Positions 29,482 to 36,900 of a stretch of DNA of 64,000 nt are shown here, one piece after another (within the stretch, counting starts at the first letter, position 1; each line of letters begins with the position of its first letter). The translations under genes and the position numbers were made by a program. Origin of the DNA: Candidatus Liptonbacteria bacterium (lineage in GTDB: Bacteria > Patescibacteriota > Minisyncoccia > UBA6257 > 2-01-FULL-56-20); the NCBI GenBank assembly GCA_023244895.1, contig JAHFLL010000001.1, forward strand, positions 489,802 through 553,801. The letters are read 5' to 3'. The notes under the pieces were generated by a model. It saw nothing but the letters and a program-made list of their open reading frames with translations. It had not been told where the DNA came from and ran no database searches.

Positions 29482-30318
29482 TTAGGCCTTGCTCTTGAGC
29501 ACCTCAACCACATCCCAAGACTTCTCCCGGCTCATATCCTCTCTGCCCAGGCGGTATAACCCTGCCTCGTTCGGCAAACGAGAATATAGGGGAGAAAAAT
29601 GCGGATAGTAGGGCGGTTGAGATACGGCGTGAAAAACCTCGCGCGGGTTCTCATACGCAAGCTTTTTCTCTAAAAGATGATTGTTGTCCATCTCGCGCAA
29701 TAGAACCAGAACTGCTTGTGTTCCAATGATAATCAAGCTAACGATTAAGCTCATAAGCATACTCCCGTCTCGGATAGCTAAAATAGTTGTTATCATCAAA
29801 ACCGCAAGCGTTATAAGAACAATCCAGTGACCAGTGGTCAGATTGTTTTTCGCGGCCAGTGATATCTCTTGCCGACAAGAAATAATTTTATCTTTCATGT
29901 CTAGGATGCGTTCCAGATATTCTTTTTCTTCAGGACCGACTGCGAGAGCGTTGATGGCCGTCTCTATTCGGTCTACTTCTTTCTCTGTTTGAAAAACATG
30001 ACCGAGCGTTCCAAGGTTTAACTGAGCAATCATATATTGATCAATGGCCTGATGCACGCTCTCCGATTTGTTGTCGCCTATCTTCCTCGCGGTGTCCGCT
30101 ATGGAAATAAGCGAGGCGTTTTCTTCCGCTATCAGGGTCTGTAGACGCAAGTAGTTAGACATGGCGTCCGCAATAAAAAATCCGGCAACAATCGCGAAAA
30201 CCGTGGAAGTTGCGCTCACTAACGTACCCAATTCGTTACCAATCTTAAAAAGTGGCAACAAAAAAGAGACTAAAACAAGACATATCCCGAGCGCGATATC
30301 TTTTTTAAACACACGCAT
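29482..30318 (-). CDS. Hypothetical polytopic membrane protein
   Basis: A 278-aa ORF with at least 4 TM helices. Confidence 0.5.
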   Translation of the reverse strand: MRVFKKDIALGICLVLVSFLLPLFKIGNELGTLVSATSTVFAIVAGFFIADAMSNYLRLQTLIAEENASLISIADTARKIGDNKSESVHQAIDQYMIAQLNLGTLGHVFQTEKEVDRIETAINALAVGPEEKEYLERILDMKDKIISCRQEISLAAKNNLTTGHWIVLITLAVLMITTILAIRDGSMLMSLIVSLIIIGTQAVLVLLREMDNNHLLEKKLAYENPREVFHAVSQPPYYPHFSPLYSRLPNEAGLYRLGREDMSREKSWDVVEVLKSKA

Positions 30319-30337
30319 ACTCTTATTGGAATAGTCC

Positions 30338-30451
30338 CTATACGCGCTTCTTTCTAGCCGCGAGCATCTGCCTCTTTATCTCCAAGCGCTTCTTGGTCTT
30401 ATGGGAATGCGATTTCTGAGGAGTACCTACTGTCGTGAATCTTTTTGCCAT
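30338..30451 (-). CDS. Possible small basic protein, 37 aa
   Basis: MAKRFTTVGTPQKSHSHKTKKRLEIKRQMLAARKKRV runs from ATG to TAG. It is below the ORF-track size cutoff. Its composition is Lys/Arg-rich like a ribosomal protein. Confidence 0.25.
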   Translation of the reverse strand: MAKRFTTVGTPQKSHSHKTKKRLEIKRQMLAARKKRV

Positions 30452-30527
30452 ATGTGTATTTGTTGATTAGTTGATTACTTGGTAAGTGTAGCAGGAATAC
30501 CGTTAAAAGAAAATATTTGAGCGGAAG

Positions 30528-30986
30528 CTAGATCTCTAAGACGGCTTGGAAATTGCCCCGGAAAGCCGGGTTCTCGGCGTCTCCCTCGCCCAGCTCTCCG
30601 ACCTTAACCACCACTCTCCCGCCCTCCTTAAAAACACCAATTTCATTTCCCCCGCCCGCAAACCAGCACTGCACGCGCGAAACCTCGTTCGGGTCGGCGG
30701 ACTCGCTTAGTATGCCGGTCTGACCAGCCTCCACCTCGTGACAACTACCGGTATATTTACCCACTGCGCGAGTATTTCCATTTGTAGTGATACTAATGGT
30801 TGTATAGGGAACGCTCTGTTCGTCCGGTTCGGATTCCACAAAACTCCATTTGTAGGACTGGGCAGGAGCTGCTAGCACTTCAGCCCTATTCGTTCCCGCC
30901 TGCTCCCCTGTCTTCTGCATATAGAAATACACGGCCGAAATAGCTACCACCAGAACAACAACCGCGATAATTATTTTTTTACTCAT
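30528..30986 (-). CDS. Hypothetical secreted protein
   Basis: An N-terminal TM or signal sequence is present (KIIIAVVVLVVAISAVYFY). Confidence 0.5.
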   Translation of the reverse strand: MSKKIIIAVVVLVVAISAVYFYMQKTGEQAGTNRAEVLAAPAQSYKWSFVESEPDEQSVPYTTISITTNGNTRAVGKYTGSCHEVEAGQTGILSESADPNEVSRVQCWFAGGGNEIGVFKEGGRVVVKVGELGEGDAENPAFRGNFQAVLEI

Positions 30987-31076
30987 AAGGTTAATATTTT
31001 ATCATCCTATCCGAAGAAGAGAATGGAAACAAAAAGCTAGGCGTGAACACTCAACCTTTTTGTTTGTCCGAAATTA

Positions 31077-31895
31077 TTATTCGATCTCGTAACGAAGCGT
31101 GACATTAACCGTAATCTCCTGACTCCCTGGCTCAACCGTAGGCGCAGGCGGAGCCTTTACGGACGAAGCGGATTCGGTAGCGGCATAATCAAGCGCGGAG
31201 TTATACACTCGATACGGGGCATAGCCCTCGTCCACGGAGAGCAATCTTCCCAATCTGAATCCAGCGGCGGTGGCAACTTTTTCCGCCCTAGCTTTTGCTT
31301 TCTGTATCGCCTGTTCGCGCGCCTGCTCCTGAATAGTGCTCGGATCATCAATCTGGAAGGACAATTGCGAAACATCGTTCACGCCCCGCGAGACAACACC
31401 GCTCAGAATATCACCAACCCTAGCGAAGTCACGCGCCTTTACCTGTACGGTTTGGGTAATCGTATATCCGACTATCTCGGCAGGCGGACAAACCTTAGAA
31501 ATCACATTCTCCGCCCCCGGTATTAACGGAGCTGGCATAATCTCGCGGCAGGTCGCATACTGATAGCGCGGAGAAAGGCTGTATCCCTGTGTCTTGATAT
31601 CTTTCGCATCCACACCGCTCGATTTCACAAATTCGATTGCCTGGTTAACTTTTTCCGTGTTTTTAGCCTGCAAAGACGCGATATCTTTCCCACCCTCACT
31701 TATCACACTGAAGGTAAATACCGCAACGTCTGGAATAGCAACAATCTTCCCTTCCCCGACAGCCGAAAAACTGCGGAACGAAGACGGCTGAATCGATTTA
31801 TCGTAAGAGCTGACATAGGAAAGAGCGGAATAACCAAACACTAGAACCCCGACAACGATAGCCCCACCTAGAACATTTTTAATTTTTTGATTCAT
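31077..31895 (-). CDS. SIMPL-domain (DUF541) periplasmic protein
   Basis: It has a signal peptide and the SIMPL-like pattern VVAIPDVAVFTFSV...LQAKNTEKVNQAIEFVKSSGVDAKDIKTQGYSLSPRYQY. Confidence 0.6.
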   Translation of the reverse strand: MNQKIKNVLGGAIVVGVLVFGYSALSYVSSYDKSIQPSSFRSFSAVGEGKIVAIPDVAVFTFSVISEGGKDIASLQAKNTEKVNQAIEFVKSSGVDAKDIKTQGYSLSPRYQYATCREIMPAPLIPGAENVISKVCPPAEIVGYTITQTVQVKARDFARVGDILSGVVSRGVNDVSQLSFQIDDPSTIQEQAREQAIQKAKARAEKVATAAGFRLGRLLSVDEGYAPYRVYNSALDYAATESASSVKAPPAPTVEPGSQEITVNVTLRYEIE

Positions 31896-32155
31896 TTTTG
31901 TAAGTTATTTTTAGCCTTTCTATTAGTTTACAGCATATCCGAGAGAAGACAAAGCAACTATTTGTTTGGGTGTTAATCGCCAATAGTGAGAGGAGTCTCA
32001 CACGCTCCCCTTCGACAAGCTCAGGGTCGTTTTTGAGACCCTCCTGTTCCAATACCTCCGCCCTTGGAAAACTCCCGTTTTCCAACTCCTTTCCCTATTC
32101 GATTCCTACCGCCAAAAATGTTTCAACCCGCCACAAGGGCGGGGCAAAACATTTG

Positions 32156-32226
32156 CGGGGGCACTAGGAATCGAACCCAGATCTCTTCTTTTGGAGAGAA
32201 GCATTCTACCACTGAACTATGCCCCC
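32156..32226 (-). tRNA. tRNA-Trp(CCA)
   Basis: The reverse complement reads GGGGGCA-TA-GTTC-AGTGGTA-GAAT-G-CTTCT-CTCCAAA-AGAAG-AGAT-CTGGG-TTCGATT-CCTAG-TGCCCCC-G, with anticodon CCA. It lies immediately downstream of rpmG, as in many bacteria. Confidence 0.85.
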
Positions 32227-32294
32227 AATGGTAACGGTTAAATTTAACAGGATAACTTAAAACCCCGCAAGTGCGGGGCTTTAAGGTTGAAAAT

Positions 32295-32474
32295 CTATTT
32301 CGCGGTTATCTTGGCTTCCTTGTGGACGGTGTGCTTTCTGCACCAGGCGCAAAATTTCTTGTAAGCGATTTTACGCTCCACGGTCTTCTTATTCTTGGAA
32401 ATATAATAATTCCGCCTCTTGCAGGTTTCGCACTTCAATCCGATAAGCTTGTCGGAACGCTTTACTTTGGCCAT
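32295..32474 (-). CDS. rpmG: 50S ribosomal protein L33
   Basis: MAKVKRSDKLIGLKCETCKRRNYYISKNKKTVERKIAYKKFCAWCRKHTVHKEAKI is the C4 zinc-ribbon form of L33. The start is placed at the internal ATG of track ORF 32295..32543. Confidence 0.85.
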   Translation of the reverse strand: MAKVKRSDKLIGLKCETCKRRNYYISKNKKTVERKIAYKKFCAWCRKHTVHKEAKITAK

Positions 32475-32567
32475 TTTATTAGTAAGTAGTGAGTAGAAAG
32501 TAGTAAGTAGGATACTACTTAGAACTGGGATATGGTACCCCAAAAGAACGTTTTAGTCAATTATAAT

Positions 32568-32584
32568 CTGAGCCGTTGGCCGGA
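32568..32584. repeat. 16-nt exact direct repeat of the tRNA-Thr(GGU) 3' acceptor end
   Basis: tgagccgttggccgga at 32569-32584 is identical to 32706-32721, which is the 3' end of the split tRNA. The roughly 120-nt spacer carries two strong hairpins (CGGAGGGAA...TTCCCTCCG and TTCGGAACC-GTGG-GTTCCGAA). Confidence 0.6.
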
Positions 32585-32707
32585 ATTTCACTACTCGCCT
32601 CTCGGTAACCTCGGAGCTGCGCTTTCGGAACCCACGGTTCCGAATAACCTCCTTCTTCGGAGGGAACCCGGTAGCTTTCCCTCCGACACCTCCTTTCGTT
32701 CAAATTG

Positions 32708-32965
32708 AGCCGTTGGCCGGATTTGAACCGGCGACCTACTCCTTCGCTTACACCCCTATTTTCTAGACACTATTAGGGGACTAGACTGTATCTTATCCCG
32801 CGGAGCGGGACCCCTTGTCAGTCGTTCGAGCCGCTAAGCGGCTACGGTCTTAACCTGTGCAGGTCTTTAACCGTTATTCGGGATTCATCCGCGATGTTGC
32901 CATCGGGATGGGCAGGAGACTTGCGTCCCACCATGGAGTTGCTCTACCAACTGAGCTACAACGGC
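32708..32965 (-). tRNA. tRNA-Thr(GGU) interrupted by a 185-nt intervening sequence in the anticodon loop
   Basis: The 5' half reads GCCGTTG-TA-GCTC-AGTTGGTA-GAGC-A-ACTCC-ATGGT. The 3' half reads AA-GGAGT-AGGTC-GCCGG-TTCAAAT-CCGGC-CAACGGC-T. Together they give perfect acceptor, D, anticodon and T stems. G1-C72 and C2-G71 are ThrRS identity pairs in E. coli. The D arm is identical to that of the intact tRNA-Thr(UGU) at 33702..33774. The exact splice site is ambiguous, and k-mer alternatives would give Pro(GGG) or Arg(GCG). Confidence 0.55.
32745..32929 (-). other. Intervening sequence within the tRNA-Thr anticodon loop (candidate self-splicing intron)
   Basis: The boundaries are consistent with a group I intron: U precedes the 5' splice site and the insert ends in G. 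At 185 nt it is shorter than the smallest group I introns I know of (about 205 nt). I did not do a core P3-P7 assignment. Confidence 0.35.
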
Positions 32966-33576
32966 TTATCTACCTTATCAATAAGCCCGACCATTATATC
33001 CCTTAACTTTGTATTTGAAAAGTGGACAGTTATTACCCCGTACCTACTCTTCTTTCGGTAGGTTCCCAGCTTACCAGACCTGGTTACTGTTGGTTTATAA
33101 AACTGGCTCACTCCAACTCCCAGCTCTTTTTTCCAAAAATCCATAGCCTCTTTGGTATCTATGTCCGAGAACGTATGCAAATGGAATTTGAAATTGTTTT
33201 TATCTATCCCGAAAAATCTTTTAAGAAACTTCATAAACGCCAAGATTAGCTTGGGGTCAGAATTGCCCAACCGAACCTGATTTTTATCTGCCTTGGTGCC
33301 CTCGCCCCAATAGAGCCCTACGCCCAGCCCAAATAATCTGAAATCCTCTGGGGTTATGGGCGCGAAAAACTTGAATGGGTCTCCGTTCGGGTTGCATCTA
33401 GCGTAAACCGCATCACTAATGCTCCGTTTTTCTATCGCATATTTCAAAAGCCAATAATTAACTTTATTTTCGGAACAATTCAATATTTCAGAAATCTCTT
33501 TAGCGGATCTCTTCTTCGTTAGGTACAAATCTACAAGCATCTGCTCTGCAATTATCCCTCTATTACCCTTATTCAT
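32956..33576 (-). CDS. HTH-domain protein with a LAGLIDADG-like motif (putative homing-endonuclease-like)
   Basis: A 206-aa protein with an N-terminal HTH-like region (SAKEISEILNCSENKVNYWLLKYAI). The motif FGLGVGLYWGEGTK resembles the single LAGLIDADG motif seen in I-CeuI/I-CreI-type enzymes. It sits between two tRNA-Thr genes and overlaps the 5' end of the split tRNA by about 10 nt. Confidence 0.4.
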   Translation of the reverse strand: MNKGNRGIIAEQMLVDLYLTKKRSAKEISEILNCSENKVNYWLLKYAIEKRSISDAVYARCNPNGDPFKFFAPITPEDFRLFGLGVGLYWGEGTKADKNQVRLGNSDPKLILAFMKFLKRFFGIDKNNFKFHLHTFSDIDTKEAMDFWKKELGVGVSQFYKPTVTRSGKLGTYRKKSRYGVITVHFSNTKLRDIMVGLIDKVDKPL

Positions 33577-33701
33577 GGCATTTATTTAAATATCGGTTGA
33601 CCTCTTTATTATATACAATTATATCAAACAATATAAGTAAAACAAACTAATGAGATGAAAACTCACGATCCATCTCCCCCCTCTCCTCTGCCCCATAGCT
33701 G

Positions 33702-33774
33702 AGCCACCTCCCGGACTCGAACCGGGGACCTTCACTTTACAAAAGTGTTGCTCTACCAACTGAGCTAAGGTGGC
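33702..33774 (-). tRNA. tRNA-Thr(UGU)
   Basis: GCCACCT-TA-GCTC-AGTTGGTA-GAGC-A-ACACT-TTTGTAA-AGTGA-AGGTC-CCCGG-TTCGAGT-CCGGG-AGGTGGC-T, with anticodon TGT. Confidence 0.85.
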
Positions 33775-33923
33775 GCTACGAGCCCAATAATAAGGAAAAG
33801 CGGGGTTTTTGTAAAACGGCTAATTGTTAAATTTGGGTAATTTTTGTACAATGAACCCGGTTGGAAAACCAGCCGAATCTCCCTAAAATCCCGCCCTGCG
33901 GGATGGTGGGCAAAACAATATTT

Positions 33924-36900
33924 ATGGCTAAATTTACTCACTTACACACCCACAGCCACTACTCCCTCTTAGACGGCCTGACCCAGATAGACGCTATGGT
34001 AGGTAGGGTCAAAGAGCTGGGGATGGATTCAATTGCTCTTACCGATCACGGCGTACTCTATGGCGCGGTGGAGTTTTACAAGAAAGCTAAGAAGGCTGGC
34101 ATTAAGCCTATTTTAGGCGTAGAGACATATGTCGCTCCCAAAGACCGCTTCAGCAAGGAGGCGGGTGAAAGATACTACCACCTCATTCTACTCGCCAAAG
34201 ACAAGCAGGGCTGGAAAAACCTTATTAAACTAGTCACCGCCGCTCATCTGGAAGGATTCTATTACAAGCCCCGGGTAGACAAGGAACTCTTGCGCCAAAA
34301 TCACGAGGGGCTAATCGCCTCTTCCGCTTGTCTGGGCGGAGAGATAGACCAGGCACTACTGGCCGACAAATTTGATGAGGCGGTAAAAATAGCGAAAGAA
34401 TACGAAGAAATCTTCGGCAAGGGAAATTATTATTTGGAAATTCAAAAGCATCCCCACATACCGGAAGCGGAAAAAGTTTGGCCGCTTAAAATTAAATTAT
34501 CCAAAGAAACCGGAATCCCCCTTATCGCCACCCAGGACAGCCACTACACCTACCCGGAACAGGCGGAATATCATGATATTTTGCTTGCGGTTCAAACCGG
34601 CAATAAACTTTCGGACGACGACCGCCTATCGCTTAAGGAAGACGACTTCTCTATCGCTGGCCCGGACACAATGGCGGAGAGATTCGCGGAGGTGCCGGAG
34701 GCGATCTCCAACACTCAAGTTGTCGCGGACATGTGCAATGTGGAGCTAGAGTTGGGCAAGGTGCTACTGCCGGATTTTCAGAAACCGGACGGCAAGACTG
34801 CCAATCAGTATTTGCGAGAACTGGTTGAAAAAAGAATTGGCAATCGCTTCAAGCCGGAAGAACAGACCAAAGAGGTGCACGACCGCGTGGAATACGAATT
34901 AGGCGTGGTAGAAAAAACTGGTTTCGCGGACTACTTCTTAATAGTGCAAGATCTCATTAACTGGGCCAAAGACCATGGCATAGCGGTCGGTCCCGGCAGA
35001 GGCTCGGCGGCGGGCAGTTTGGTTTCTTATATTCTGAATATTACCGACGTTAATCCCCTGCCCTATGACCTATTGTTTGAACGCTTCCTAAATCCGGAAC
35101 GTATTCAAATGCCAGATATTGATATTGACTTCGCGGACAAGCGCCGGGACGAGGTTTTAGCCTACGCGCGCGACACCTACGGCGAAGATCGAGTGGCCCA
35201 AATTATTACTTTTGGAACCATGGCGGCGCGCGCCGCTATCAGAGACGCGGGCAGAGCCATGGGCATGACTTACGGCTTTTGCGACCAGATTGCCAAGCTA
35301 ATACCTCTCAACGAAAAATTGGCGGTGGCCATTAAAAAAGTGCCGGAGCTCAGTGAATTTTACAATACCAACCCGGATGCCAAAAAACTACTTGATGCGG
35401 CGGCGCACCTGGAGGGAGTCGCCCGCCACGCCTCCGTGCACGCTTGCGGAACAGTGATATCTAAGGAGCCATTGGTAAATGTGGTGCCGCTTCAATTCGC
35501 TCCGCAGGAAAGGAGTAATGTCATCACCCAGTTTGAAATGCACTCCGTAGAAGACCTGGGATTGCTCAAAATTGACTTCTTGGGGTTGCGGAATCTGACT
35601 ATTATTGAGAATACGGTGCGTCTCATAAAAGATTTGCACGGCGTGGATTTGGATATATCCAAACTGCCGCTTAACGACCAAAAAACTTTTGAGCTGCTGC
35701 AGGTCGGCAATACCACCGGAGTATTCCAGTTTGAGTCCAGCGGTATGCGCCGTTATATGAAAGAGATTGTGCCAACCGAATTTGAAGACCTGGTGGCGCT
35801 GGTGGCGCTATTCCGCCCCGGCCCAATGGAACTTATCCCCTCCTATATTAAGCGCAAACACGGCAAGGAGAAGATTACCTATCTACACCCCAAGCTGGAG
35901 CCAATTCTAAAAAACACCTACGGCATAGGTGTCTACCAGGAACAGATGATGCGTATCGCGCGCGACTTGGCCGGCTACTCTCTGGCGGAAGCGGATACTC
36001 TACGCAAAGCTATCGGCAAGAAGATTAAGGAGCTGCTGGACGAACAGGAAAGCAAGCTAGTGAACGGTATGATAAAAAATGGCATAGACAAAAAAATCGC
36101 CAAGGCCATTTGGGAGTTGTTCCCGCCCTTCGCGCGTTATGGCTTCAATAAAAGCCACGCGGTCTGCTATGCTCTAATCGGTTACCGCACTGCCTATCTT
36201 AAAGCGCACTATCCGGAAGAGTTCATGGCGAGCTTATTAAACGCGGAGGTAAATGATATTGAGCGGATTTCTTTGCTTATTAACGAGGCACGCCAGAATA
36301 AGGTAGATATACTGCCTCCCGATGTGAACAAAAGCTTTGTGGACTTCACCCCAGAAGGAGAAAAGATAAGATTCGGCTTACAAGCCATTAAAAACGTGGG
36401 CGAGGCTATCACGCAGGCCATTATTGAAGAAAGAGTAATGCGCGGACCGTTTACTTCTTTTAGTGAATTTTTAACTCGCACCCAACACAAGGATTTAAAT
36501 AAAAAATCTTTGGAGAGCATGATCAAGGCGGGTGTATTTGACTCGCTCGGGCTGGAACGCAATCAGGGACTTTTCAACTCGGATGAAATAGTTAAATTCG
36601 CCTCTAATTTCCGCAAGTCCCAAGAACAAGCCAGTAGCTCTCTCTTCGGAGCAGGCACCATGCCAACGCCAACCCTGATTCTCAAGGAGTGCCCACCCGC
36701 TACCTCCGCCCAAAAATTATCCTGGGAAAAAGAATTGGTAGGCTTCTACCTTTCCGACCACCCACTTAACAGCTATTTAGATGTTATAAAAAGAGTTAAC
36801 GCCAAACCCATCGCCGAAGTGCGCCAAATGCAAGACAGCGATGAAAAAGTGATTATCGCGGGCTGCGTTTCCAGTCTGAAAAAGATCACCACCAAGAGCG

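What the first reader, a model, noticed from the sequence alone, without database searches (positions are those of the whole stretch)
32708..32965. tRNA-Thr(GGU) split by a 185-nt intervening sequence
Two halves give a perfect cloverleaf. The acceptor is GCCGTTG/CAACGGC, the D arm GCTC/GAGC, the anticodon stem ACTCC/GGAGT and the T arm GCCGG/CCGGC. The 5' half is at 32930-32965 and the 3' half at 32708-32744. They are separated by 185 nt inserted in the anticodon loop, after ...ACTCC-ATGGT and before AA-GGAGT. The insert follows a U and ends in G, as group I introns do, and it has several GC hairpins. It is shorter than any group I intron I know of. It could be a minimal or degenerate group I intron, or another class of intervening sequence. 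A sibling tRNA-Thr(UGU) 700 bp away is intact and shares the same D arm.
Basis: partly seen in the sequence, partly recalled or inferred. Interest (0 to 1): 0.7.

Follow-up and report, generated by a model that had tools for sequence, protein, structure and literature searches.

The report
Compact group I intron in tRNA-Thr
The gene for threonine tRNA (anticodon GGU) is really interrupted by a 185-base self-splicing-type (group I) intron; this very small intron family is common in the ultra-small Patescibacteria and was described in 2026, so the find is real but not new.

Summary
On the minus strand, exon 1 (32965-32930) and exon 2 (32744-32708) form a perfect tRNA-Thr(GGU) cloverleaf, split after U36 by 185 nt (32929-32745). 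ARAGORN and Rfam, including RF00028, miss it.

A genome scan found at least 83 such split tRNA-Thr(GGU) genes, nearly all in Patescibacteria, with inserts of 176-266 nt. They align into one family. The group I fold (P1-P9, the P3/P7 pseudoknot, P9.0, the U·G 5' splice pair and a terminal G) is supported by covariation: 89.8% of cells are paired against 31-46% in slid controls, and 40 of 57 pairs show compensatory changes. A model built from 48 other species hits only this spot in the window (168 bits).

Nakagawa et al. 2026 (PMC13011429) already reported these "divergent group I introns" at 36/37 of tRNA-Thr(GGU), also invisible to RF00028. This is therefore a new member of a known kind.

One point may be new. 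A LAGLIDADG-like gene (33576-32956) ends in the tRNA's own U8-A9-G10. It directly precedes about a third of these split genes, which suggests a two-part homing cassette. Short structured inserts flanked by repeats of tRNA ends also occur here and remain unexplained.

The parts
32930..32965 (-). tRNA-Thr(GGU) exon 1 (tRNA positions 1-36, ending in anticodon G34 G35 U36)
   Evidence: Read directly; the stems were checked. A sub-threshold Rfam tRNA match covers the 5' half.
32745..32929 (-). 185-nt compact group I intron inserted at 36/37. Window coordinate = 32930 minus intron position. P1 extension 1-5/10-14 with a GCAA loop. Guide G17-C19 pairs with exon G34 G35 U36. P2 20-29/34-44 with a GCAA loop. 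P3 47-50/116-119. P4 57-61/81-85. P5 65-69/74-78. P6 87-92/96-101. P7 107-111/142-146. P8 120-125/129-134. P9.0 149-150/183-184. P9 151-156/172-177. Terminal G is position 185.
   Evidence: Family alignment A2. Covariation count. Independent RNAalifold structure and model R2. R2 match of 168.3 bits over the full length. MFE z-score -3.2.
32911..32913 (-). Internal guide G17 C18 C19, which pairs with exon G34 G35 U36 (U·G at the 5' splice site)
   Evidence: The pairs GC, GC and UG are present in 82 of 82 sequences (helix 1). They never vary, so they give no covariation evidence.
32784..32823 (-). P7 (GACUG 32823-32819 / CAGUC 32788-32784) enclosing the P3 3' strand and P8, with J8/7 UAAGAUA. 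This is the presumed guanosine-binding core.
   Evidence: P7 is invariant in 82 of 82 sequences. P3 and P8 covary.
32745..32747 (-). P9.0 3' strand (G183 C184) and terminal G185 at the 3' splice site
   Evidence: The two P9.0 pairs switch GC to AU (56/23) and CG to UA (51/24) in concert. The terminal G is invariant.
32708..32744 (-). tRNA-Thr(GGU) exon 2 (positions 37-73, including discriminator U; no encoded CCA)
32956..33576 (-). 206-aa gene for a LAGLIDADG-like protein with an N-terminal helix-turn-helix. Its last codons (Pro-Leu-stop) are tRNA positions 2-10, and the stop TAG is U8-A9-G10. It is a candidate free-standing homing endonuclease (or maturase) linked to the split tRNA.
32993..33021 (-). 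Promoter-like site TTTTCA-17-TATAAT inside the 3' end of the ORF, 28 nt upstream of the tRNA
   Evidence: Consensus scan, 10 of 12 positions. This is a pattern match only.

Best explanation
The 185 nt are a compact group I intron in the anticodon loop of the tRNA-Thr(GGU) gene, between positions 36 and 37. The proposed mechanism, inferred from the established group I pathway, runs as follows. In the precursor, the last three exon bases G34 G35 U36 pair with intron G17 C18 C19 to form P1, with the U·G wobble marking the 5' splice site. The core (P3-P8 and P4-P6, locked by the P3/P7 pseudoknot) binds a free guanosine in P7, and that guanosine attacks after U36. P9.0 then brings the terminal G185 into the same site, and the freed U36 3'-OH attacks after G185. 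This joins the exons into a normal tRNA-Thr(GGU) that reads ACC/ACU. The intron is small because every peripheral element is reduced to a short hairpin, and three of these carry GNRA-type loops (P1 extension, L2, and L9 in relatives). Shown here: the split gene, homology to a large family, and covariation for every variable helix. Inferred: catalysis, splicing in vivo, and whether a protein helps. The LAGLIDADG-like gene that abuts the tRNA is most likely the mobility partner of this ORF-less intron.
For: Sequence and cloverleaf. Eighty-three split tRNA-Thr(GGU) genes with inserts of 176-266 nt in species-representative genomes. One alignable family with an invariant core (GAAUAACGGUU, AAGACCGU, ACGACUGACAAG, AUACAGUCUA). 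Covariation test of the group I structure: 89.8% of cells paired against 31-46% when partners are slid; 40 of 57 pairs with changes on both sides; 0 of 500 shuffles reach the observed values; P2, P3, P5, P6, P8, P9 and P9.0 all covary. RNAalifold independently recovers P2 and P4-P9. The model built without the window scores it at 168.3 bits, with a single hit in the window. There are 71 strong hits in 100 loci. Literature: the same tRNA, site and 'divergent group I intron', missed by RF00028 and mostly by ARAGORN; in one of the three published genomes (GCA_001029635.1) the supplementary table read shows tRNAscan-SE finding only two tRNA-Thr genes: PMC13011429.
Against: No Rfam RF00028 match even at E<=10. 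No splicing experiment exists for the Thr introns; the 2026 paper tested only the Asn and Asp 35/36 introns. P1, P4 and P7 never vary, so they are supported by conservation only. P1 is just 3 bp plus an extension. P10 (CUCCU/AGGAG in the window) is not conserved across the family. The window holds only 64 kb, so a second, intact tRNA-Thr(GGU) elsewhere in this genome cannot be excluded.
Confidence: 0.9

Rival explanations
1. The gene is a dead tRNA pseudogene disrupted by an inert insertion. ACC/ACU codons would then be read by another tRNA-Thr.
For: Standard tRNA finders do not call it. tRNA-Thr(UGU) lies 700 nt away. The locus is littered with other small insertions.
Against: Both exons keep 16-17 of 17 stem pairs in 83 species, while the intron varies from 54 to 98% identity and changes by compensatory substitutions. 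The splice-site U and G are invariant. The published complete genome whose row was read here (GCA_001029635.1) shows only two tRNA-Thr genes by tRNAscan-SE (PMC13011429).
Confidence: 0.04
2. It is a group I-shaped intron that no longer splices on its own. It would need a protein helper, for example the adjacent LAGLIDADG-like protein acting as a maturase.
For: The periphery is extremely reduced and P1 is 3 bp. A LAGLIDADG-fold protein is encoded next to it. LAGLIDADG maturases are established in fungal mitochondria (general knowledge).
Against: Forty-one of 83 intron-bearing loci have no such gene within at least 800 nt upstream, and two keep only 31-aa remnants, yet their intron cores are equally conserved. 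The acidic residue of the GEG motif is invariant, as expected of an active nuclease rather than a pure maturase. The Azoarcus intron, of similar size, self-splices (general knowledge).
Confidence: 0.12
3. It is a different kind of intervening sequence: an archaeal-type bulge-helix-bulge intron, a group II intron, or a small transposable element with target duplication.
For: There is no RF00028 hit. The same locus does carry small inserts flanked by duplicated tRNA ends.
Against: No target duplication flanks the 185 nt, and removing it restores the loop exactly. No Rfam group II or other family matches. The helix order, pseudoknot, P9.0, U·G pair and terminal G are those of group I and covary. 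No search for a bulge-helix-bulge motif was run.
Confidence: 0.02

Closest known systems
'Divergent group I introns' at position 36/37 of tRNA-Thr(GGU) in Patescibacteria (Nakagawa et al. 2026, mSystems, PMC13011429; detected with tFind's gpI_bact_tRNA model, Williams 2020, bioRxiv 10.1101/2020.01.27.920355)
   Same: Same tRNA, same anticodon and same insertion site. Same failure of RF00028 and ARAGORN. Same size class (their tRNA introns start at 184 nt). Same phylum. One locus in my family alignment, L056, is the complete Wolfebacteria genome CP011209.1; it may be one of their three genomes, but I could not verify the accession link.
   Different: Nothing essential differs. They listed three cases from complete genomes and gave no structure, covariation or splicing test for the Thr introns. 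Here at least 83 cases are aligned, the smallest is 176 nt, and a flanking LAGLIDADG-like gene is noted, which their search (limited to ORFs inside introns) would not have seen.
[quoted passage not shown]
   Same: A bacterial tRNA anticodon-loop intron. It has a very short P1, minimal periphery, and GNRA loops on P2 and P9. It is an ORF-less ribozyme.
   Different: No detectable sequence relationship through Rfam. The 2026 paper places the Thr introns with subgroup IA rather than IC. The present family is 10-30 nt shorter.
Patescibacteria tRNA-Asn/Asp group I introns at 35/36 (PMC13011429), shown to self-splice in vitro
   Same: Same phylum and the same kind of host gene. Similar core motifs (GACUA/UAGUC-type P7, A-rich J8/7). 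They cluster with the Thr introns in the authors' tree.
   Different: Different insertion site and host tRNA. They are detected by RF00028. Some carry HNH endonuclease genes inside the intron. They have been tested experimentally.
[quoted passage not shown]
   Same: An ORF-less intron sits next to a separately encoded endonuclease-family gene. The gene shows a presence, absence and remnant pattern across relatives.
   Different: Here the host is a cellular tRNA gene, the protein is LAGLIDADG-like with an HTH, and its reading frame ends inside the tRNA. No cleavage activity or target is known, so this is an analogy and not a demonstrated membership.

Membership tests
Group I intron | The 5' splice site follows a U that forms a U·G wobble with the internal guide in P1 | tested here: met
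   U36·G17 with G35-C18 and G34-C19 in 82 of 82 aligned sequences. The pairs are invariant, so this is conservation and not covariation.
Group I intron | The intron ends in a guanosine (omega G) | tested here: met
   Terminal G in 82 of 82 sequences (invariant column G195).
Group I intron | Conserved core helices in the order P3-P4-P5-P6-P7-P3'-P8-P7', with the P3/P7 pseudoknot | tested here: met
   P3 has 3 of 4 pairs with compensatory change. For P5 the figure is 4 of 5, for P6 5 of 6, and for P8 6 of 6. P4 and P7 are invariant. Overall 89.8% of cells are paired against at most 46% when slid.
Group I intron | P9.0: two pairs between the bases after P7 and the bases before the terminal G | tested here: met
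   Both pairs covary (GC 56/AU 23; CG 51/UA 24), with 98.8% of cells paired (helix 9).
Group I intron | P10 pairing of the guide with the 3' exon | tested here: inconclusive
   In the window, CUCCU (12-16) can pair with AGGAG of exon 2. The pairing is absent in relatives whose anticodon stem is UGACG.
Group I intron | Match to the curated covariance model Rfam RF00028 (Intron_gpI) | tested here: not met
   No match at gathering score or at E<=10 on 701 nt. The same failure is reported for this intron family in PMC13011429, so it reflects the model's reach.
Group I intron | Guanosine-dependent two-step self-splicing | not testable with these tools
   [quoted passage not shown] Not done for any tRNA-Thr intron in the literature I read.
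Patescibacterial tRNA-Thr(GGU) 36/37 intron family | Sequence and structure homology to other members | tested here: met
   Model R2, built from 48 other species, scores the window at 168.3 bits over positions 1-185 of 185. The best non-self identity is 77%.
LAGLIDADG homing endonuclease (for the flanking ORF) | LAGLIDADG helix with a conserved acidic residue, and the alpha-beta-beta-alpha-beta-beta-alpha fold | tested here: inconclusive
LAGLIDADG homing endonuclease (for the flanking ORF) | Site-specific DNA cleavage of alleles lacking the element | not testable with these tools
   Needs purified protein and an intronless tRNA-Thr(GGU) target.

The most novel reading that the evidence does not exclude
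The ORF-less intron and the LAGLIDADG-like gene immediately upstream form a two-part homing cassette in a cellular tRNA gene. The gene's stop codon is the tRNA's own U8-A9-G10. On this reading the protein, probably a homodimer, cuts the near-palindromic anticodon-arm DNA of intronless tRNA-Thr(GGU) alleles. The intron splits that site and so protects its carrier. Repair then copies gene, exon 1 and intron together. This would be collaborative homing outside phages. It would also revise the published view that Patescibacteria tRNA introns lack endonucleases and are therefore immobile. Distant homologues of the same protein sit just downstream of intron-split tRNA-Phe genes, which hints that the arrangement is general.
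Probability: 0.4. Interest if true: 0.6.

Novelty: new member of a known kind. Interest (0 to 1): 0.33.

Why it matters
For annotation: an essential-looking tRNA is invisible to ARAGORN, the Rfam tRNA model and RF00028. Genomes of this phylum will therefore be scored as lacking tRNA-Thr(GGU), and completeness estimates suffer. The family model built here recovers it cleanly.

For RNA biology: members of 176-185 nt are among the smallest natural group I candidates. The 82-sequence alignment gives a covariation-backed minimal architecture that could be tested as a ribozyme.

For mobile-element biology: if the flanking LAGLIDADG-like gene is an active endonuclease, these introns are not stranded relics. 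They would be half of a mobile unit, in a phylum where intron persistence in tiny genomes is an open question.

Tried and rejected
1. Rfam at gathering score and at E<=10: no group I, group II or other family over the insert or the neighbouring structured inserts.

2. ARAGORN: finds only the three intact tRNAs.

3. Exact-protein look-up of the ORF: not on record. The L33 look-up gave close relatives instead.

4. Profile search of the ORF family against PDB sequences: only weak HTH-type matches and no endonuclease. Fold comparison was needed.

5. Looked for near-identical introns in distant hosts as a sign of recent transfer: none. The best cross-locus identity is about 79%.

6. Tried to explain the 121-nt insert after the tRNA as group I, hammerhead-like, a T-loop intron, an IS605/TnpB-type or IS110-type guide RNA, or an integrase att remnant. 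None fits all of its features. The splice-site rules fail by eye, and no recombinase or nuclease gene was noted near it (ORFs were listed only for window 30000-36000; genes in the other loci were not searched).

7. Model R1 of the dispersed repeat detects the copy after tRNA-Trp. It does not detect the insert after tRNA-Thr(GGU), so I do not claim homology for that one.

8. A viral-contig scan for the repeat motif gave one irrelevant coding-region match.

9. Literature searches for the repeat or for tRNA-end duplications in this phylum found nothing relevant.

10. I could not link CP011209.1 to the GCA accession in the 2026 paper, because the supplement is truncated.

Full report
1. The observation

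All features lie on the minus strand. One search shows exon 1 at 32965-32930 (GCCGTTG TA GCTC AGTTGGTA GAGC A ACTCC ATGGT). It is followed by a 185-nt insert at 32929-32745, and then exon 2 at 32744-32708 (AA GGAGT AGGTC GCCGG TTCAAAT CCGGC CAACGGC T). Joining the exons gives a canonical 73-nt tRNA with anticodon GGU, and all 17 acceptor, anticodon and T-stem pairs are intact. The break lies between positions 36 and 37. The insert follows a U and ends in G.

The intact tRNA-Thr(UGU) is at 33774-33701. ARAGORN and Rfam report only three tRNAs in the window (Val, Trp, Thr-UGU) and nothing over the split gene. Even at E<=10 on a 701-nt slice there is no RF00028 match, only a sub-threshold tRNA hit to the 5' half. 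The insert folds better than shuffled controls (z = -3.2).

The surroundings are bacterial: dnaE, rpmG, and tRNA-Trp. Relatives carry Patescibacteria names.

2. What it is

A pattern that asks only for the D arm, the anticodon GGT and a non-A at position 37 was scanned over one genome per species. In 83 of them, counting the window and L002, a downstream 3' half completes a tRNA-Thr(GGU) with 16-17 of 17 stem pairs. The inserts are 176-266 nt long.

Almost all of these loci are Patescibacteria MAGs (Kaiser-, Wolfe-, Moran-, Uhr-, Azam-, Jorgensenbacteria, Saccharibacteria and others). One is an isolate of Niastella populi, a member of the Bacteroidota.

The inserts align as one family with an invariant core. 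I wrote a group I structure on the window sequence and counted it across the 82 distinct sequences:
- 89.8% of cells are paired, against 31-46% when the 3' partners are slid by 1-3 columns.
- 40 of 57 pairs show changes on both sides.
- No shuffle out of 500 reached any observed measure.
- P2, P3, P5, P6, P8 and P9 covary.
- The two P9.0 pairs, which join the bases after P7 to the bases before the terminal G, switch GC/AU and CG/UA in concert.
- P1 (GGU/GCC with the U·G wobble), P4 and P7 are invariant.

RNAalifold independently recovered P2 and P4-P9 on a second alignment of 48 introns that excluded the window. The resulting model hits the window once, at exactly 32745-32929, at 168.3 bits over its full length. 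It finds 71 strong matches in 100 loci.

The close relative L002 differs at four intron positions. One of these differences is an A-U to G-C exchange in P5.

3. How it most likely works

What follows is inferred from the established group I pathway; it was not tested here. P1 presents U36. A guanosine bound in P7 cleaves after U36. P9.0 then docks the terminal G185, and exon ligation yields tRNA-Thr(GGU).

The intron is small because all peripheral domains are short hairpins. The P1 extension and L2 carry GCAA loops, and the shortest relatives cap P9 with a GNRA loop. P10 is possible in the window but is not conserved. Whether a protein assists is open.

4. Comparison with what is known

Nakagawa et al. 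2026 (PMC13011429) surveyed 95 complete Patescibacteria genomes. They listed three tRNA-Thr(GGU) genes with 'divergent group I introns' at 36/37. These introns were not detected by RF00028 and were mostly missed by ARAGORN. They were found with tFind's model (Williams 2020).

The same paper gives a tRNA-intron length range of 184-894 nt. It places the Thr introns near subgroup IA and states that most tRNA introns lack endonuclease genes. Its splicing tests covered only the Asn and Asp 35/36 introns. In one of the three genomes (GCA_001029635.1), the supplementary row I read shows tRNAscan-SE finding only two tRNA-Thr genes, so the split gene would be a third tRNA-Thr copy; I read that row for that genome only.

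The window's intron is therefore a further member of a described kind.

5. The flanking gene

The 206-aa ORF at 33576-32956 ends ...Asp-Lys-Pro-Leu-stop, encoded by GAT AAG CCG TTG TAG. Its last codons are therefore tRNA positions 2-10.

The association with the split gene is strong:
- Homologues lie directly upstream on the same strand in 26 of the 83 split genes.
- Two further loci keep only 31-aa C-terminal remnants.
- 41 loci with at least 800 nt of upstream sequence have none.
- Sampling the family from the protein side (four proteins, ten contigs) gave an intron-split tRNA-Thr(GGU) abutting the ORF every time.
- Many family members end in ...Pro-Met or ...Pro-Leu in the same register.
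- Distant homologues (25-29% identity) lie about 100 nt downstream of tRNA-Phe(GAA) genes split at 33/34.

This pattern of presence, decay and loss fits a free-standing homing endonuclease gene travelling with an ORF-less intron, as in collaborative homing in phages (PMC3984707). A single LAGLIDADG domain implies a homodimer and a near-palindromic target, and the anticodon-arm DNA is near-palindromic. That last point is inference only. A promoter-like site within the ORF's 3' end lies 28 nt upstream of the tRNA.

6. Other things at the locus

The tRNA's last 16 nt (TCCGGCCAACGGCTCA, 32721-32706) recur at 32584-32569, and 121 structured nt lie between the two copies. That insert begins with ATTTGAAC, the complement of this tRNA's own T loop.

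Across the fetched Patescibacteria loci, 24 of 283 tRNA genes of many isotypes show such a downstream complement, a 3'-end repeat, or both. In L002 an equivalent insert sits in the T arm of tRNA-Thr(UGU), and other inserts duplicate tRNA 5' ends.

Many of these inserts share a scaffold, GGGTCGGGGAAAC-loop-GTTTCCCCG...AAACCGNGGGTTT. That scaffold occurs in at least 120 metagenome contigs. About half of the sites lie downstream of tRNAs, and the rest are plain intergenic spacers. A model of the scaffold detects a copy after the window's tRNA-Trp (32100-32022, 45 bits). It does not detect the insert after tRNA-Thr(GGU). I found no Rfam family or paper for this repeat, and its nature is unresolved.

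7. Verdict

The family is already published, so the novelty rating is 'new member of a known kind' and interest is modest. The most novel reading still open is the two-part homing cassette.

Noticed in passing
window 32956-33576 (minus): A 206-aa LAGLIDADG-like + HTH gene whose stop codon TAG is tRNA-Thr(GGU) U8-A9-G10. It belongs to a family of at least 1089 unnamed proteins. It sits directly upstream of about a third of the split tRNA-Thr(GGU) genes, with decayed remnants in others.
   Followed up: yes
window 32569-32721 (minus): A 16-nt direct repeat of the tRNA 3' end (32721-32706 and 32584-32569) flanks a 121-nt hairpin-rich insert that starts with the complement of the tRNA's own T loop (ATTTGAAC). 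There is no Rfam match, and the insert is not detected by the dispersed-repeat model R1.
   Followed up: partly
window 32022-32108 (minus), downstream of tRNA-Trp: After a terminator-like hairpin comes TAGGAATCGAA, the complement of the tRNA-Trp T loop and stem. It is followed by a copy of a structured repeat (model R1, 45.1 bits, E 1.6e-8). The core motif of this repeat occurs in at least 120 metagenome contigs, downstream of tRNAs of all isotypes and also in ordinary intergenic spacers. Its function is unknown.
   Followed up: partly
L002:1-200 and L002:930-1060: In a close relative, tRNA-Thr(UGU) carries a roughly 146-nt insert in the T arm with a repeated 3' end, and a 19-nt hairpin breaks the first copy. 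A roughly 115-nt insert flanked by ATAAGCCGTTGTAGC also separates the LAGLIDADG-like ORF from tRNA-Thr(GGU). Similar 5'-end duplications occur in L032, L065, L104 and L115, and at a tRNA-Trp in L002.
   Followed up: partly
L026, L039, L047, L075, L110 (about 160-200 nt upstream of the split tRNA): A second copy of the whole exon 1 (positions 1-38, reading ...CCATGGTAA) is followed by unrelated sequence. It lies just upstream of the real intron-containing tRNA-Thr(GGU). This could be a relic of an intronless allele or of a recombination event.
   Followed up: no
L059:5198-5450 (Niastella populi contig NZ_LWBP01000002.1): A cultured Bacteroidota isolate carries a 181-nt member of the same intron family in tRNA-Thr(GGU) (173 bits with model R2). 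The family is therefore not confined to Patescibacteria.
   Followed up: partly
L004, L017, L033, L037, L041, L068, L082 (and probably L070): tRNA-Phe(GAA) genes are split at 33/34 by 237-250-nt introns (exon 1 ...GGACT, exon 2 GAAAATCC...; L070 has the same 5' half, but its 3' exon was not found). In L033, L037, L068 and L070 a distant homologue (25-29% identity) of the LAGLIDADG-like protein lies about 100 nt downstream.
   Followed up: partly
L079:7209-7407, L023:7675-7859, L070:1364-1536: Weak additional matches (23-35 bits) of the Thr-intron model away from tRNA-Thr(GGU) exons. They may be more divergent related introns in other genes.
   Followed up: no
L163:3100-3420: A copy of the dispersed repeat is flanked by a roughly 42-nt direct repeat covering the 5' end of a GTPase-like gene on the opposite strand. 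This suggests that the repeat's insertions can duplicate long stretches of target sequence.
   Followed up: no
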